Positions 10,388 to 46,523 of a DNA stretch of 64,000 nt are shown in pieces. The stretch is from Candidatus Hodarchaeota archaeon (GTDB lineage Archaea > Asgardarchaeota > Lokiarchaeia > Sigyniarchaeales > SOKP01). Position 1 is the first letter of the stretch; every line of letters starts with the position of its first letter. A model generated the notes under the pieces. The model did not search any database and was not told the origin of the DNA. It saw only the letters and a program-made list of their open reading frames with translations. The stretch covers positions 1-64,000 of the forward strand of contig JBHLJY010000005.1 of the NCBI GenBank assembly GCA_048887225.1, read 5' to 3'. The position numbers and the translations under genes are program-made.

Positions 10388-12535
10388 ATGATATCTAAAA
10401 AGACTATCTTTTTAGCAATTATCATCTTAATTCTATTTCCATTTTCAATTTTTAGTTTTGCAATATCAAAGGAGATGGATTTAAACTTATACCCAAATGT
10501 AAAAGCAGCTGATGTTACTGATGTGGATTTATCTGAATTACCTCAAATAGATTATTCATGGGGTGCAGAATGGGAAGATCCTAAAATTGAAATGCTTATC
10601 ATTGTACCTGCTAATAAACCAGCCTGGGTTGAAGCTGTAAAACCTTTAGCAGCATGGAAGAATGAAAAAGGAGTAAAGACTATTATTCTTAATGATACGT
10701 CTGGATTTTCAGGTATAGATAAGGCTGAAGAAATTCGAAATATGATAAAATACTATTATGAAAGAGAAAATATTAAATGGGTTTTGCTATGTGGTGACGC
10801 TCAAGCTGATTTAATCCCAATCAGAAAAGTTTATAATCCAGATATAAGTGGGGAGGCTTTTCTAGATAAACCAACTGATTATTATTATGCTGATTTAACA
10901 GGCAGTTGGGACAGCGATGGGGATGGAGTATTCGGAGAGGCAGCGCGTTTTGCAGGTGGAATTGATGAGATCGAATGGACACCAGACGTTTATGTTGGTA
11001 GGTTACCTGCTAATAACCTTTACGAACTTGAATTATTGGTTAATAAAACATTAAAATACGAATCTGATCCTTTTATAGGTCAGTGGATGAATAGGATGCT
11101 GTTAGCAGGTGGGATCTCAGAACCTACTCCAACAGAGAGTGGTTATGAAGATGAGGGTCGTTTAACCCAATATATTTGGCAACAATACATACCATCTGCA
11201 ATGAATTTTACACATTTAGTTGACTATACTGGTAAGTATTACGCTTCACAATTTATACCAGATGATCCTTTCGTTGATCTGACTCAAGCACGGGTAAGCC
11301 AAAATATGACCGCAGGATATTCAACAGTTATCATGGCAGGTCATGGAGACAATAATAATTTCTATAGTAAACTTTCTCCAATTCAAACCACAGGATATTC
11401 TTCTAATGATGCAAAAAGTATTGGCAATACTAATATGCCTTCTTTAGTATATATCGATGCATGTGAAACGACTTCGTATGACAAGAATGATGGTAATCTT
11501 GGTGAAACATTAATAAATGCAACTCATGCAGGCGCAATAGGTGTAATAGGTGCTCTAAGAATTACATTTTATTATACTAATGATGCTAAACTTGAAAAAT
11601 TAAATCGGGGAAATGCTAAATTATTTTGGTATGAATTTTTTGTTGAGAAGAAATTTCAGCAGGGAAAAGCATTATATGATTCAAAAGTAGCTTATATAAA
11701 TAGTGATTATTATCAAAATCGAGTAAATCCCACATATGAAGAAGAAGAGCGTAAAAATCTGCTTACTTATTGTCTTTTGGGAGATCCTGAAGTTGATATA
11801 TATACAGATATCCCATCGAAAGCCTCAAATCCCTTTACAGGAAATATATTTGAAGGGCAATTAATAACAAATACAGTCCGAGACATTAACGGGGAGGTCG
11901 TTCCATATGCGAGGATTTATTTAAAATCAGAGGATGGAAAATATAATTATACAACTTATGCTAATAAGTTTGGCAGATTAAATTTCAGAATTTATCCTAA
12001 AGAAAATGTTAATTATAATGTGACAATAACAGGTCATAATTTAATCCCCTCTCATTTTAACTTTACAACGCTCCCAGACTTTATTAAACCAGAATTTGAC
12101 GACGAAGAATGTAGTCCTGAAAATCCTACTGTTTCAGATAATGTTTGCTTCGATATTGAGGCGTATGATTTTCAGTCTGGACTTGAGAGTGTATTTTTAT
12201 TGCAATCAGAAGATAATGATTTTGATGAGTATGAATATTATGAGATGTTAAATAGATTTCAAGGCGATTCTAATACATTTTCATACGAATTAAAAAAATT
12301 AGAACCTGGCGAATATTTCTTTTTGATAATTGGAAGAGACTGGGCGAATAACTATAAAATATTAGAAGATGAAAGTTTTGAAATAGTAATACCTACTCCG
12401 CTAATGGATTACTTACTTATTATAATGTCAATAGCGGTTGTGGGCGTTGTTGGAATTTCGATTACTATTGCTTATATTACGTTTAAAAATTATAAACATG
12501 CTTTCTGGAAGTTAAAGAGAGAATCTTCCCATTAA
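10388..12535 (+). CDS. C25 (gingipain-family) cysteine peptidase, membrane anchored
   Basis: WVLLCGD, PTDYYY, VGRLP, AGHG (His), DACET (Cys), LLGDP; signal peptide and C-terminal TM. Confidence 0.9.
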   Translation: MISKKTIFLAIIILILFPFSIFSFAISKEMDLNLYPNVKAADVTDVDLSELPQIDYSWGAEWEDPKIEMLIIVPANKPAWVEAVKPLAAWKNEKGVKTIILNDTSGFSGIDKAEEIRNMIKYYYERENIKWVLLCGDAQADLIPIRKVYNPDISGEAFLDKPTDYYYADLTGSWDSDGDGVFGEAARFAGGIDEIEWTPDVYVGRLPANNLYELELLVNKTLKYESDPFIGQWMNRMLLAGGISEPTPTESGYEDEGRLTQYIWQQYIPSAMNFTHLVDYTGKYYASQFIPDDPFVDLTQARVSQNMTAGYSTVIMAGHGDNNNFYSKLSPIQTTGYSSNDAKSIGNTNMPSLVYIDACETTSYDKNDGNLGETLINATHAGAIGVIGALRITFYYTNDAKLEKLNRGNAKLFWYEFFVEKKFQQGKALYDSKVAYINSDYYQNRVNPTYEEEERKNLLTYCLLGDPEVDIYTDIPSKASNPFTGNIFEGQLITNTVRDINGEVVPYARIYLKSEDGKYNYTTYANKFGRLNFRIYPKENVNYNVTITGHNLIPSHFNFTTLPDFIKPEFDDEECSPENPTVSDNVCFDIEAYDFQSGLESVFLLQSEDNDFDEYEYYEMLNRFQGDSNTFSYELKKLEPGEYFFLIIGRDWANNYKILEDESFEIVIPTPLMDYLLIIMSIAVVGVVGISITIAYITFKNYKHAFWKLKRESSH

Positions 12536-13094: not shown

Positions 13095-13229
13095 CTTTGA
13101 TTACACTCATAAAACAATTGCTTCTAAGTTTAATCCTTTCATATTAAAAAAATTTAATTATTAGTCTTTATTAAAATATTCATTCCTTACTATATAAGTT
13201 AGCATCTACAAAAAAATTTTAGAATGCTA

Positions 13230-13237
13230 CTATATAG
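13230..13237 (+). promoter_or_regulatory. putative TATA box of the permuted 5S precursor
   Basis: CTATATAG about 20-25 nt upstream of the first base of the terminal processing stem (13254). Confidence 0.45.
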
Positions 13238-13289
13238 GCATGAGGGATTTTTTAACCACAAAAGGTATGTAATTCGCTACGCGCCGGAA

Positions 13290-13409
13290 GTTAAACATTT
13301 TTGCGTTGTTAATAGTACTGCATTTGCGATATGTGGGAACTGACAAACTGTAGATTCGTCTACGGTCATGGCAAAGGAGGATAATACCCGGTCCCATCCG
13401 AACCCGGAA
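13290..13409 (+). rRNA. rrf: 5S rRNA, circularly permuted gene (precursor about 13254-13429)
   Basis: 3' half (GTTAA..., loop E AGTA/GAA, helices IV/V) at 13290-13354 precedes 5' half (TCTACGGTCAT...CCCGGTCCCATCCGAACCCGGAA) at 13359-13409; helix I ACTGTAGA/TCTACGGT closed by TTCG. Confidence 0.9.
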
Positions 13410-13468
13410 GCGCATAAACTTTTGTGGTTTCCATAATAACAATAAGCCAATTAAATATTTTTTTAAAG

Positions 13469-14026
13469 ATGCCCAAAAAATATGTAATTTTTTTAAAATC
13501 AATCGCTCGAAAATGGTTTATATTTGTTATTATAACAATCCTCATAATTGCTTTAGTTGGCTGGATAGGATGGAAGAACTTGACTCCGGCAATTGTTGTA
13601 ACGATTATTTTTATAGCATTATTAGTTTTATCGTATATCCCGAGAATTTATTCACCTCAGAAATTGAAAAAATTTATGAACAAATATTATAGGATTGAGG
13701 ACAAGACAATAGCTAGAGAATCAAGACATACTTTAAGTGATGTACAAGAAAAAATGTTTAATATGTCGCAAAAACAAGAAAATAACGATTGGCTAATTAT
13801 ATTTCTAAATAAACATTATATATTTTATCACGAGCTTACAATTGAGAAATTTAAAGAATTTTACAATAAAGGTTTCAGAGATAAAGAAATCCTCGAAAGA
13901 TTAAAAGAATACGACCTTGAGACTAGAGCAGAAGTAAAAACTATTGAAGATACATTAATCAAATATAATAGACTTAGCAAAAGGGAAATTTCTGTTAAAA
14001 AACGTATGGAAAAAGAACGATTCTAA
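13469..14026 (+). CDS. two-TM membrane protein with cytoplasmic C-terminal domain
   Basis: two hydrophobic helices then charged domain; ATG 13469 preferred because GTG 13424 lies in the 5S processing stem. Confidence 0.65.
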   Translation: MPKKYVIFLKSIARKWFIFVIITILIIALVGWIGWKNLTPAIVVTIIFIALLVLSYIPRIYSPQKLKKFMNKYYRIEDKTIARESRHTLSDVQEKMFNMSQKQENNDWLIIFLNKHYIFYHELTIEKFKEFYNKGFRDKEILERLKEYDLETRAEVKTIEDTLIKYNRLSKREISVKKRMEKERF

Positions 14027-33011: not shown

Positions 33012-34157
33012 ATGATATATACTAAATTTCAAAAATTAATAGGAACGAAGTATCCAATAATTCAAGCCGGAATGGGCCCGTATAGTACAACTGACCTCTG
33101 CATTGCGGTAGCTAAAGTAGGAGGATTAGGATTGATCTCAACCATTGGAATGGGCACAGGTCTAAGTTTGGCTACACCTGAAGCTGCAGAAAAGATTTTT
33201 GGGAAAGGAAGGCCCAAAGAAATTGTAAAAAAAGTCATACAATATGTTTACGATAAATTAGAGGATTATCCGGACGCCAAATTTGGCGTTAATGTACCTG
33301 TTGCGGCAGATTTTGATTATGTCGCAAAACGCTTAGTTCAAGGAATTATTGAAATTTTAAATAATAAACCAGAAATTAAAAAAAAATTAGTAGTTTTAGT
33401 AACCTCAGCAGGAGACCCCTTACCTTGGGCAGTTAACGCTAAGAACAAAGGTGCTAAAAAGGAAAGAATCCCCGTTAAAGAAGAAATACAACATATAATT
33501 TGGTGCCATGTCTGCCCTAGCGTGCGAACTGCAAAACGTGCCGAAAAAGCTGATGTCGATATCGTCATTGCCTCAGGCAGAGAAGGCGGAGCCCATTGTG
33601 CGTGGAGGGATGTTTCATCAATGGTATTATTACCTGAAGTCGTGAAAAATGTTAATAAACCTGTTGTTGGTGCTGGAGGATTTTCAGACGGAGCTTCTTT
33701 AGCAGCAGCTTTAGCGTTAGGTGCCATAGGAGTTCAAATGGGAACCCGTTTTATTGCTACGAAGGAAGCTGATTTTCAGCAAATGTGGAAAGAAGCAATC
33801 GTTAAAAGAGCTGAAACGGATACGCTTATTGCACGAGGATTCTTTGGTCCTATGAGATTTCTTAGGAATCAAATGTCTTTAAAAGTAGTGGATGAAACAA
33901 TTTCAGGTGCATCTGACCTGTTTCGCGGAATTCCATGCCCATCAAACGACTCTATAATGAATATTGAACTGGAGGGCCTGAAAAAGCTTTATGATGAAAT
34001 CGAAGAAGAGTCCATAATACTGGGCGGTTCGGTTACAGGTCGCATTCATTCGATTCCAACGGTGAAAGAATTGCTTGAAAGTATAATAACTGAAGCTGAA
34101 AAAATTATCTCAGAATTACCTTCTTACATTAGAAAAGAAAAATTAATAGAGATTTAG
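33012..34157 (+). CDS. nitronate monooxygenase / FabK-like flavoprotein
   Basis: YPIIQAGMG, EGGAH, GAGG, GVQMGTRF. Confidence 0.85.
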   Translation: MIYTKFQKLIGTKYPIIQAGMGPYSTTDLCIAVAKVGGLGLISTIGMGTGLSLATPEAAEKIFGKGRPKEIVKKVIQYVYDKLEDYPDAKFGVNVPVAADFDYVAKRLVQGIIEILNNKPEIKKKLVVLVTSAGDPLPWAVNAKNKGAKKERIPVKEEIQHIIWCHVCPSVRTAKRAEKADVDIVIASGREGGAHCAWRDVSSMVLLPEVVKNVNKPVVGAGGFSDGASLAAALALGAIGVQMGTRFIATKEADFQQMWKEAIVKRAETDTLIARGFFGPMRFLRNQMSLKVVDETISGASDLFRGIPCPSNDSIMNIELEGLKKLYDEIEEESIILGGSVTGRIHSIPTVKELLESIITEAEKIISELPSYIRKEKLIEI

Positions 34158-46417: not shown

Positions 46418-46523
46418 GGGAGGGTGGTCTAGCTTGGTATGATACTGTAAAGAACATTAATCTTTACGGCTTGAATCTTGGTTTGGGACCAAGGGGTCGG
46501 GGGTTCAAATCCCCCCTCTCCCA
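46418..46523 (+). tRNA. tRNA-Pro(TGG) with 32-nt intron (46444-46475) at position 25/26
   Basis: acceptor GGGAGGG/CTCTCCC, anticodon arm CTTGG-TTTGGGA-CCAAG, T arm GGGGG-TTCAAAT-CCCCC; intron hairpin CTGTAAAGA/TCTTTACGG. Confidence 0.93.

What the first reader, a model, noticed from the sequence alone, without database searches (positions are those of the whole stretch)
13254..13429. Circularly permuted 5S rRNA gene flanked by a BHB-like splice motif, predicting a 120-nt circular 5S rRNA in an Asgard archaeon
Seen in sequence: the intergenic island holds a complete 5S rRNA in swapped order. The 3' half is at 13290-13354 and the 5' half at 13359-13409. All helices form: I ACTGTAGA(13347-54)/TCTACGGT(13359-66), capped by a TTCG tetraloop where the mature ends normally lie; II GCAAAGG/TTTTTGC; III/loop C CCGG-TCCCATCCGAAC-CCGG; loop E AGTA/GAA flanked by CTGCAT/ATGTGG and TTGTTA/TGACAA. 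CCGGAAG occurs at both ends (13284-90, 13404-10). The self-complementary CCGG copies can form a 4-bp central helix, each followed by a 3-nt AAG bulge, closed by GCG(13281-83)/CGC(13411-13) and an outer 11-bp stem AACCACAAAAG/CTTTTGTGGTT. The inner helix is imperfect, so this is a relaxed BHB/BHL. Established knowledge: the tRNA splicing endonuclease cuts after the 2nd bulge nucleotide and RtcB circularises the excised piece. Permuted SRP RNA (Thermoproteus), permuted tRNAs and permuted organellar 5S RNAs are known. Inference: cutting AA|G at both bulges and ligating A13409 to G13290 regenerates exactly the conserved CCGAACCCGGAAGUUAA, so the rRNA would be matured as an 'intron' circle. I know of no described genomically permuted, splicing-dependent 5S rRNA in archaea, and standard rRNA finders would miss or fragment it.
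Basis: partly seen in the sequence, partly recalled or inferred. Interest (0 to 1): 0.97.

Follow-up and report, generated by a model that had tools for sequence, protein, structure and literature searches.

The report
Permuted 5S rRNA gene, ring-forming
This Asgard archaeon's only 5S ribosomal RNA gene is written back half first, between cut signals of the tRNA-splicing type, so a normal 5S can arise only by cutting the transcript and re-joining its ends, most likely into a 120-nt ring; the same layout occurs in most Asgard families sampled and explains why their 5S genes look missing.

Summary
Window 13290-13354 is 5S model positions 52-120. 13355-13358 is a UUCG cap joining the native ends. 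13359-13409 is positions 1-51. It is the only 5S-like locus in a 98%-complete genome.

The swapped fold shows strong covariation: 95% of cells are paired, against 35-43% in slid controls. A processing stem plus a bulge-helix-bulge (BHB) motif, GCG-CCGG-AA|G ... CCGG-AA|G-CGC, flanks the gene and also covaries.

Relatives break the gene at three or more different points, and some add BHB introns in loop C. In every case, cutting after the second bulge base and joining restores the canonical 5S sequence.

The genome encodes a catalytic and a His-less EndA paralog, and RtcB.

In the phylum sample, permuted BHB-flanked genes were found in 15 families (f1, f3, f4, f6, f8-f11, f13, f18, f19, f22, f24, f26, f27). 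Canonical genes were found only in six (f2, f12, f15, f17, f21, f31). No family had both.

I obtained no RNA data for this organism. Cutting and joining are therefore inferred, and whether the ring is the mature form is open (about 55%).

No paper describing this turned up. This scan has noted the same thing before on other DNA: 116 notes in at least 92 genomes, some claiming RNA ring reads that I did not test.

The parts
13254..13264 (+). 5' strand of the outer processing stem (AACCACAAAAG)
   Evidence: Pairs with 13419-13429. A 7-20 bp stem is found at this place in nearly all of 38 relatives, often with quite different sequence; the automatic pick was doubtful in L016 and L027. Covariation was counted.
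13265..13280 (+). Leader segment between the outer stem and the BHB; it forms a small hairpin (GTAGC-loop-GCTAC type) in relatives but only a weak one here
   Evidence: An 11-22 nt segment with a hairpin lies at the same place in relatives. Its function is unknown.
13281..13283 (+). BHB outer helix H1, 5' strand (GCG)
   Evidence: Pairs with CGC 13411-13. H1 is at least 3 bp in 33 of 34 distinct contexts, with compensatory variants such as CACTAAA/TTTAGTG and CCCAT/GTGGG. H1 is 6-15 bp in other Asgard classes.
13284..13287 (+). BHB central helix, 5' strand (CCGG); a mimic of the 5S helix III strand
   Evidence: Pairs with CCGG 13404-07. It covaries across loci: CCGG/CCGG, CTGG/CCAG, CTGG/TCAG, CGTG/CACG, CCGA/TCGG, CCAG/CTGG.
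13288..13290 (+). 5' bulge AAG; predicted cut between A13289 and G13290
   Evidence: A 3-nt bulge is conserved: AAG in 20, AAC in 7 and ACG in 4 of 34 contexts. G13290 aligns to RF00001 position 52.
13290..13354 (+). 3' part of 5S rRNA: 3' strand of helix II, helices IV/V with loop E, 3' strand of helix I
   Evidence: RF00001 positions 52-120, truncated-mode match. Helices covary.
13355..13358 (+). UUCG tetraloop that closes helix I where the native 3' and 5' ends of a normal 5S lie
   Evidence: The three cap-proximal pairs all covary. UUCG, UACG, UGCG or CUUG caps are seen across the phylum.
13359..13409 (+). 5' part of 5S rRNA: 5' strand of helix I, 5' strand of helix II, helix III and loop C
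   Evidence: RF00001 positions 1-51, 30.6 bits.
13404..13407 (+). BHB central helix, 3' strand (CCGG); it is also the 3' strand of 5S helix III
13408..13410 (+). 3' bulge AAG; predicted cut between A13409 and G13410
   Evidence: A13409 aligns to RF00001 position 51.
13411..13413 (+). BHB outer helix H1, 3' strand (CGC)
13419..13429 (+). 3' strand of the outer processing stem (CTTTTGTGGTT)
13458..13464 (+). Run of seven T, the likely archaeal transcription stop (inferred)
   Evidence: Sequence. T-rich tracts follow the outer stem in most relatives.

Best explanation
Window 13254-13429 is the single 5S rRNA gene of this Loki-type Asgard archaeon, encoded in circularly permuted order: model positions 52-120, then a UUCG cap, then positions 1-51.

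The proposed pathway is as follows.
1. The transcript folds so that leader and trailer form an outer stem and a short GCG/CGC helix. These present a bulge-helix-bulge motif: a CCGG/CCGG central helix with an AAG bulge on each strand.
2. The tRNA-splicing endonuclease cuts after the second base of each bulge (A13289|G13290 and A13409|G13410). Here the enzyme has one catalytic and one His-less subunit, so it is probably a heterotetramer with relaxed specificity.
3. RtcB joins A13409 to G13290.
4. This rebuilds the conserved ...CCGAACCCGGAA-GUUAAAC... stretch and yields a covalently closed 120-nt RNA with the normal 5S fold, in which helix I is closed by the tetraloop.

Shown here: the permuted gene, its uniqueness in the genome, the covarying 5S fold, the covarying stem and BHB, the exact restoration of the canonical sequence for several breakpoints, and the presence of the enzyme genes.

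Inferred: cleavage, ligation, and that the ring itself (rather than a re-opened form) sits in the ribosome. I put the ring as final form at about 55%.
For: - **Halves and joint.** RF00001 aligns 1-51 to 13358-13409 and 52-120 to 13290-13356. An HMM of canonical sister-family 5S matches the re-ordered sequence end to end.
- **Only copy.** This is the sole RF00001 or R1 match in G000, which is 98.3% complete. In single-contig genomes G104, G105 and G160, the only weak RF00001 matches also lie at the permuted locus.
- **5S fold.** 95.4% of cells are paired against 35-43% slid, and 19 of 27 pairs are compensatory.
- **Stem and BHB.** 90.1% paired against 30-42% slid, 14 of 18 pairs compensatory, 0 of 500 shuffles reach this. 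The seven BHB pairs are 98.7% paired against 32-42% slid.
- **Independent breakpoints give the same product.**
  - Class B (for example L015, L012) breaks in loop C with CTGG-AA|C ... CCGG-TC|A.
  - Class C (L011) breaks in loop B with CCGA-AA|A ... TCGG-AA|A.
  - Other classes use CGTG-AA|A ... CACG-GA|A with 10-15 bp stems.
  - All regenerate a canonical joint and a 119-128 nt ring.
- **Introns.** Loop-C inserts of 30-31 nt in some relatives carry their own BHB, and its removal restores CCCAUCCGAA|CCCGG.
- **Distribution.** A permuted-core model hit 118 of 131 genomes of the family. It also hit eight further families across the phylum. Canonical 5S occurs only in other families.
- **Enzymes.** There are two EndA paralogs. 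One has the catalytic His; in the other that His is replaced by Ser. RtcB is also present.
- **Cap.** UNCG-type caps are conserved phylum-wide, which argues that the cap is kept.
- **Precedent.** The Thermoproteus permuted SRP RNA is cut at a BHB by EndA and is circular in vivo (PMC4731332).
Against: - No RNA evidence for this organism. No RNA run holds the locus. The one run laid, of unknown kind, gives a contig colinear with the DNA.
- The BHB is relaxed. The inner helix is at most GUU/AAC, and only if the 5' bulge shrinks to 2 nt. H1 is only 3 bp here.
- In silico the BHB conformer is 7.4 kcal/mol less stable than the minimum-energy fold (-46.6 against -54.0). CCGG occurs three times and can pair in other ways.
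- The transcription start is not known. If the CTATATAG box (13230-37) is the TATA box, the start would fall inside the outer stem.
- The full-length Infernal score of the re-ordered sequence could not be computed with these tools.
- Circular forms of ordinary 5S in Sulfolobus and Halobacterium are read as decay products (PMC12558985). A ring as such is therefore not proof of function.
Confidence: 0.75

Rival explanations
1. The ring is only an intermediate. After BHB cutting and joining it is re-opened, most plausibly at the helix I cap, to give an ordinary linear 5S with native ends. This is how permuted tRNA genes of Cyanidioschyzon merolae work.
For: - Permuted tRNAs mature through a circular intermediate that is then opened (Soma 2007, cited in PMC4267664).
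- Some relatives carry a 31-nt hairpin in the cap. That hairpin could be a removable spacer.
Against: - The cap is nearly always a 4-nt UNCG or CUUG tetraloop directly closing a covarying helix. That is what selection for a retained, stable cap looks like. A discarded spacer would not look like this.
- The 31-nt cap insert has no BHB (my check sequences).
- No 5S end-forming nuclease site is evident.
Confidence: 0.15
2. The transcript is cut at the bulges, or trimmed by other nucleases, but not joined. The ribosome would then carry a linear, permuted 5S with its ends beside helix III, as in brown-algal mitochondria, where the product itself is permuted.
For: - Permuted linear 5S molecules exist in brown-algal mitochondria (PMC4267664).
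- In family f4 the 3' bulge is followed at once by a T-rich terminator, and H1 is weak.
Against: - BHB-excised RNAs in archaea are as a rule circularised by RtcB (PMC4731332). This genome has RtcB.
- Three or more breakpoints and two intron positions all obey one cut rule that restores the exact canonical length and sequence. That is what selection on a joined product would give.
- Loop-C introns in relatives cannot be tolerated without exon joining.
Confidence: 0.07
3. The locus is a pseudogene, a chance resemblance or a misassembly, and the real 5S lies in an unassembled part of the genome.
For: - The native-order Rfam score is below threshold (22.4 bits).
- The genome is a 49-contig assembly.
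Against: - The same arrangement is present as a single copy in 118 of 131 independently assembled genomes of the family.
- Closed single-contig genomes have no canonical copy.
- There is heavy compensatory covariation.
- An independent run's contig is colinear with 0 differences over 13262-13468.
Confidence: 0.01

Closest known systems
Permuted, circularised SRP RNA gene of Thermoproteus tenax / T. uzoniensis (Plagens et al. 2015, eLife, PMC4731332)
   Same: - An essential structured non-coding RNA gene is encoded with its 3' part ahead of its 5' part.
- Leader and trailer form a BHB.
- No canonical copy exists.
- A heterotetramer-type EndA and RtcB are present.
- The product is a functional ring.
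   Different: - The RNA here is a ribosomal RNA.
- The trait spans most families of a phylum rather than a few species.
- Several breakpoints, plus extra BHB introns, occur among relatives.
- Cleavage and circularity were shown experimentally for SRP RNA but not here.
Circularly permuted tRNA genes of Cyanidioschyzon merolae (Soma et al. 2007, as cited in PMC4267664)
   Same: The 3' half lies upstream of the 5' half, a BHB sits at the new junction, and maturation goes through a circular RNA.
   Different: - There the ring is opened by RNase P and tRNase Z at the native ends.
- Here the native ends are bridged by a conserved 4-nt tetraloop with no evident processing signal.
- That case is a eukaryotic alga and a tRNA.
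BHB processing stems of archaeal pre-16S/pre-23S rRNA, circular or permuted 23S (PMC12918454; PMC7758197)
   Same: A long processing stem presents a BHB, EndA cuts and RtcB circularises an rRNA. Circular 23S has been reported within ribosomes.
   Different: - Those genes are colinear, so circularisation is not needed to restore sequence order.
- PMC12918454 states that 5S is not processed this way.
Permuted mitochondrial 5S rRNA of brown algae (Valach et al. 2014, PMC4267664; Rfam mtPerm-5S)
   Same: A 5S in which helix I is closed as a hairpin and the ends lie elsewhere.
   Different: - Only the alpha domain is rearranged, the ends sit at the three-way junction, and the product stays linear.
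- There is no BHB and no joining.
- No Rfam family other than RF00001 matched this locus.
Circular isoforms of ordinary 5S rRNA in Sulfolobus and Halobacterium (Danan 2012, as cited in PMC12558985)
   Same: Covalently closed 5S-derived RNAs exist in archaea.
   Different: - Those come from colinear genes and have variable junctions.
- They are read as decay products.
- They are not required to build the molecule.

Membership tests
5S rRNA (Rfam RF00001) | Conserved sequence blocks: loop C CCCAUCCGAAC, GUUAAxC, loop E AGUA/GAA | tested here: met
   Truncated-mode alignments of both halves. End-to-end nhmmer match of the re-ordered sequence to canonical sister-family 5S.
5S rRNA (Rfam RF00001) | Three-way junction with helices I-V supported by covariation | tested here: met
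   27 pairs, 95.4% paired, 19 with compensatory changes, slid controls 35-43%.
5S rRNA (Rfam RF00001) | Colinear gene: helix I formed by the transcript's two ends; score at or above the 38-bit gathering cut-off | tested here: not met
   The native order scores 22.4 bits. Helix I is closed by a tetraloop inside the gene. This is a difference in gene order, not in the RNA made.
5S rRNA (Rfam RF00001) | Full covariance-model score of the re-joined sequence at or above the cut-off | not testable with these tools
   cmscan takes only stored sources. The halves sum to 43.7 bits without the helix I and II pair terms.
Substrates of the archaeal tRNA-splicing endonuclease (BHB/BHL motif) | Central 4-bp helix flanked by two 3-nt bulges on opposite strands | tested here: met
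   CCGG/CCGG with AAG and AAG bulges. 32 of 34 contexts have 4 of 4 pairs, and the central helix covaries.
Substrates of the archaeal tRNA-splicing endonuclease (BHB/BHL motif) | Helices on both outer sides of the bulges (strict hBHBh') | tested here: inconclusive
   The exon-side helix is present: GCG/CGC plus an 11-bp outer stem, and 6-15 bp in other classes. The ring-side helix is at most GUU/AAC with a shortened bulge. This makes it a relaxed motif, of the kind heterotetrameric EndA accepts (PMC4731332).
Substrates of the archaeal tRNA-splicing endonuclease (BHB/BHL motif) | Enzymes encoded: EndA and RtcB | tested here: met
   Two EndA paralogs, at C1:186989 and C3:61052. One retains the catalytic His and in the other it is Ser. 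RtcB is on C13, interrupted by a 29-nt BHB-type insert.
Substrates of the archaeal tRNA-splicing endonuclease (BHB/BHL motif) | Actual cleavage at the bulges | not testable with these tools
   This needs an in vitro assay or RNA end mapping.
Permuted RNA genes matured by BHB cutting and circularisation (Thermoproteus SRP RNA type) | 3' part encoded upstream of 5' part, no colinear copy in the genome | tested here: met
Permuted RNA genes matured by BHB cutting and circularisation (Thermoproteus SRP RNA type) | Cut-and-join at the BHB restores the canonical sequence | tested here: met
   Met for this locus and for three or more other breakpoints in relatives.
Permuted RNA genes matured by BHB cutting and circularisation (Thermoproteus SRP RNA type) | Junction-spanning RNA reads / circular RNA in vivo | not testable with these tools
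   No RNA holder is listed for this stretch. Earlier notes of this scan claim such reads in other Asgard lineages; I did not test that here.
Brown-algal mitochondrial permuted 5S (mtPerm-5S) | Ends at the three-way junction, linear product, match to the Rfam model | tested here: not met
   No Rfam match other than RF00001. The breakpoint here is beside helix III and is flanked by a BHB.

The most novel reading that the evidence does not exclude
The covalently closed 120-nt ring is itself the working 5S rRNA inside the ribosome. [quoted passage not shown] Once ring formation was fixed, the gene's breakpoint drifted freely (three or more positions) and BHB introns could settle in it.
Probability: 0.5. 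Interest if true: 0.92.

Novelty: new variant of a known kind. Interest (0 to 1): 0.9.

Why it matters
- **Annotation.** 5S rRNA is universal, and annotation is assumed to find it easily. Here a whole phylum-level group mostly hides it from the standard model. Genome-quality standards that ask for a 5S gene are therefore failed for a biological reason, not a technical one.
- **Biology.** It would be the first ribosomal RNA whose very sequence order depends on the tRNA-splicing endonuclease and ligase. It would tie ribosome production to that machinery in the lineage closest to eukaryotes.
- **Evolution.** The set of natural breakpoints and introns is a ready-made experiment on what a circular 5S tolerates.
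- **Testability.** It can be tested directly with RNase R, joint-spanning reads and cryo-EM of Asgard ribosomes.

Tried and rejected
- **Pattern scan of genome contigs** for GTTAAAC-gap-ACGGTCAT. It returned almost only chance matches in bacteria. The one 'Promethearchaeota' hit (L038) did not match the permuted-5S model. The scan was wasted, so no organism names were gained from it.
- **RNA runs.** No RNA holder is listed for 13200-13500. The single run of unknown kind gave only a contig colinear with the DNA (13262-13468, 0 differences) and no joint.
- **Scan of metagenome contigs for the ligated-only 30-mer** spanning loop C and the joint. All 7 hits are ordinary colinear 5S genes of unrelated archaea with 41-52% G+C. 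No ring-derived contig of this family was found.
- **Bacterial-type promoter and terminator scan**. Uninformative for an archaeon, so the transcription start remains undetermined.
- **Is the 31-nt helix-I cap insert of some relatives a BHB intron?** No 4-bp helix with bulges fits any of the three possible cut registers. I read it as an expansion hairpin.
- **Automatic BHB finders.**
  - drowned in A+T-rich chance stems.
  - mis-parsed G170, G162, the f4 loci and L011. For those I rely on reading the sequences by hand.
- **Do canonical 5S genes of sister family f2 have processing stems or a BHB?** None found. They have a TATA box about 25-30 nt upstream and a T-run right after the gene.
- **Pfam scan of neighbouring ORFs** failed on a wrong frame and was not repeated.

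Full report
**1. What is in the sequence**

The whole-window Rfam scan at gathering thresholds finds nothing, and ARAGORN finds no tRNA. A permissive scan gives one sub-threshold RF00001 match of 22.4 bits, in which only model positions 1-52 align sensibly.

I then offered the two pieces separately so that Infernal's truncated mode could work. 13358-13409 aligns to model positions 1-51 (30.6 bits). 13290-13356 aligns to positions 52-120 (13.1 bits). The pairs that link the halves (helices I and II) are not scored in that mode.

A profile HMM built from six canonical 5S genes of the sister family f2 matches the re-ordered sequence end to end (model 3-115, 37.3 bits). Against the native order it gives two swapped partial hits of 13.0 and 7.5 bits. 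Over 30 loci the medians are 43.7 and 22.1 bits.

**2. It is the organism's 5S gene**

The window's genome (G000, 3.27 Mb, 49 contigs, 98.3% complete) has no other RF00001 match, even at E = 10.

In 24 genomes of the same family (f1), none has a canonical 5S above the Rfam cut-off. They show only a roughly 21-bit match to the loop-C segment. The sister family f2 has ordinary 5S genes at 53-68 bits.

I aligned the permuted core of 17 loci (A1). RNAalifold and my pair count recover helices I, II, IV and V, with 95.4% of cells paired against 35-43% for slid partners. 19 of 27 pairs have compensatory changes, including all three pairs next to the cap. 0 of 500 shuffles reach these values.

A covariance model of this core (R1) finds one copy at 85-114 bits in 118 of 131 genomes of f1. 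In the single-contig genomes G104, G105 and G160, the only weak RF00001 signals lie at the permuted locus. Pseudogene and misassembly are therefore excluded. A contig from an independent run also covers 13262-13468 colinearly with no differences.

**3. The flanks**

Nearly all of 38 loci show the same layout (the automatic outer-stem pick was doubtful in L016 and L027):
- an outer stem of 7-20 bp;
- a leader segment of 11-22 nt with a small hairpin;
- a short helix H1;
- a 4-nt strand and a 3-nt bulge;
- the permuted 5S;
- the complementary 4-nt strand and a 3-nt bulge;
- the other H1 strand and the other outer-stem strand;
- a T-rich tract.

The geometry (5' strand H1-C-bulge, 3' strand C-bulge-H1) is that of the tRNA-intron BHB. 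I base that on my own knowledge of pre-tRNA structure and on the definition in PMC4731332.

The seven pairs of H1 (3 bp) and the central helix are 98.7% paired against 32-42% slid. H1 shows full compensatory replacements. On an alignment of 19 class-A precursors, the stem plus BHB is 90.1% paired against 30-42% slid. 14 of 18 pairs are compensatory, and 0 of 500 shuffles reach that. The predicted ring is 119-122 nt.

**4. Independent tests from relatives**

The breakpoint is not the same everywhere.
- **Class A** (this window and most loci) breaks at model 51/52.
- **Class B** (for example L015, L012, L158) breaks inside loop C. Upstream it reads ...GCG-CTGG-AA|C-CAUCCGAACCCGG... and downstream ...ACCCGG-UC|A-CGC. 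Joining gives CCCGGUC|CCAUCCGAAC, the canonical loop C.
- **Class C** (L011, family f3) breaks in loop B, with CGC-CCGA-AA|A ... UCGG-AA|A-GCG. This gives GGAA|ACACCC, the Rfam consensus.

Other Asgard classes keep the class-A position, shifted by one base in several of them. They have long, perfect stems of 10-15 bp abutting the motif and different central helices: CGTG/CACG, CCGA/TCGG, CCAG/CTGG, GTCG/CGGC. Each regenerates ...GGA|AGUUAAGC... or ...GGAA|GUUAAGC... and a 121-128 nt ring.

Some loci carry a 30-nt insert in loop C with its own BHB: TCCG-AA|N, a 3-7 bp hairpin stem, then CGGG-AA|C. Its removal restores CCCAUCCGAA|CCCGG. L157 has a different intron after CCCAU.

One cut rule therefore explains five different arrangements. 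That is hard to account for unless these motifs are really cut and the ends joined.

**5. Enzymes**

G000 encodes two EndA paralogs of 201 aa. One aligns best to chains 3p1z_B, 3ajv_B and 2zyz_B and keeps the catalytic His (GPGLEHSPF). From my own knowledge, those chains are catalytic subunits of crenarchaeal heterotetramers. In the other paralog, the His of M. jannaschii EndA (KEHS) aligns to Ser. This suggests a catalytic-plus-structural heterotetramer, the type with the most relaxed BHB recognition (PMC4731332). RtcB is present.

**6. Distribution**

The neighbouring C25-peptidase protein belongs to clusters whose known taxa are Promethearchaeota, the NCBI name for the Asgard phylum. The window has 31% G+C.

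In a phylum-wide sample of 151 genomes:
- R1 hits families f1, f8, f9, f11, f13, f24, f26 and f27.
- Canonical RF00001 hits occur only in f2, f12, f15, f17, f21 and f31.
- No family has both.
- Several families with neither signal (f10, f18, f19, f22) turned out by eye to hold permuted, stem-flanked genes as well.
- Within the window's own class, f3, f4 and f6 are permuted too.

Canonical genes of f2 are simple units: a TATA box about 25-30 nt upstream, a T-run right after the gene, and no processing stem. Some of them are in tandem arrays. Tandem duplication followed by loss of the outer halves is therefore a plausible origin; that is inference.

**7. What is not shown**

No RNA run holds the stretch, so cutting, joining and circularity rest on inference and on the Thermoproteus precedent.

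The BHB here is relaxed, and in silico it is 7.4 kcal/mol above the minimum-energy fold. The transcription start is unknown.

Whether the ring is final or is re-opened cannot be decided. The phylum-wide UNCG or CUUG tetraloop on a covarying helix I favours a retained cap, and hence a ring. I put that at about 55%, and cut-and-join at about 85%.

**8. Novelty**

Full-text searches for permuted or circular 5S, alone and with Asgard or BHB terms, found only three things:
- the brown-algal mitochondrial case (PMC4267664);
- decay-type 5S circles (PMC12558985);
- papers on 16S and 23S circularisation, one of which states that 5S is not processed this way (PMC12918454).

The mechanism is of a known kind (the permuted SRP RNA of Thermoproteus, PMC4731332). 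The molecule, the phylogenetic breadth and the diversity of breakpoints are new.

This scan has noted the same phenomenon before on other DNA: 116 notes in at least 92 genomes, and a Loki-type look-alike. Some of those notes claim ring reads in environmental RNA of Heimdall-group and Atabeyarchaeia lineages. I could not test that and do not count it as evidence.

Noticed in passing
L184:1645-1673 (= G000 contig C13, about 33457-33485; outside the window): The genome's only rtcB gene is interrupted by 29 nt between the codons for GGVGY and DINCG, which shifts the frame. The insert has a textbook BHB: TTGG, bulge AT|A, an 8-bp stem CATAAAAG/CTTTTATG, CCAA, bulge AA|A. Cutting and joining restores G-V-G-Y-D-I in frame. 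The RNA ligase's own mRNA therefore appears to need EndA plus RtcB splicing, which could allow feedback control.
   Followed up: partly
L154, L155, L029, L167, L169, L170, L202 (loop C of their permuted 5S); L157: Some relatives carry a 30-31 nt BHB intron inside loop C of the permuted 5S gene. L157 has one at a second position, containing a partial duplicate of the 5S 5' part. Their transcripts would need two rounds of BHB processing.
   Followed up: partly
L019, L022, L024 (G005, G009, G006) and about 15 further genomes with 131-133 nt R1 matches: A 31-nt G+C-rich hairpin is inserted in the helix I cap just before the UUCG. It has no BHB and looks like an expansion segment at the place where normal 5S ends lie.
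   Followed up: partly
L188 (G007:C109:5289-5382): A second, degenerate permuted 5S copy (40 bits) with a class-B type 3' end lies about 700 nt from the intact class-A copy of the same genome. It is probably a decaying paralog, and it hints at how breakpoints change.
   Followed up: no
L204 (G173:C18, about 33450 onward): A second permuted 5S unit begins about 40 nt after the first one, so permuted genes occur in tandem.
   Followed up: no
G032:C1:1399892-1400758; G039:C66:1456-1934: Sister family f2 has canonical 5S genes in tandem arrays, three copies about 375 nt apart in one genome and two copies in another. This is a possible starting point for permutation by duplication and loss.
   Followed up: no
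window 13262-13468: The one public run that holds the locus gives a 207-nt contig whose ends fall about 24 nt after the CTATATAG box and just after the T7 run. Its depth is higher than that of the next contig (8.5 against 3.2). The run's kind is unknown, so it could be a collapsed conserved DNA stretch or a precursor-like RNA.
   Followed up: no
window 10388-12535: The upstream gene encodes a 715-aa C25 (gingipain-type) peptidase, whose closest clusters are Promethearchaeota-specific.
   Followed up: no
window 1-64000: ARAGORN reports no tRNA in 64 kb. An earlier first-reader note places a tRNA-Pro with a non-canonical BHB intron at 46418-46523. If that note is right, it is another sign of heavy use of relaxed BHB splicing in this genome.
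   Followed up: no
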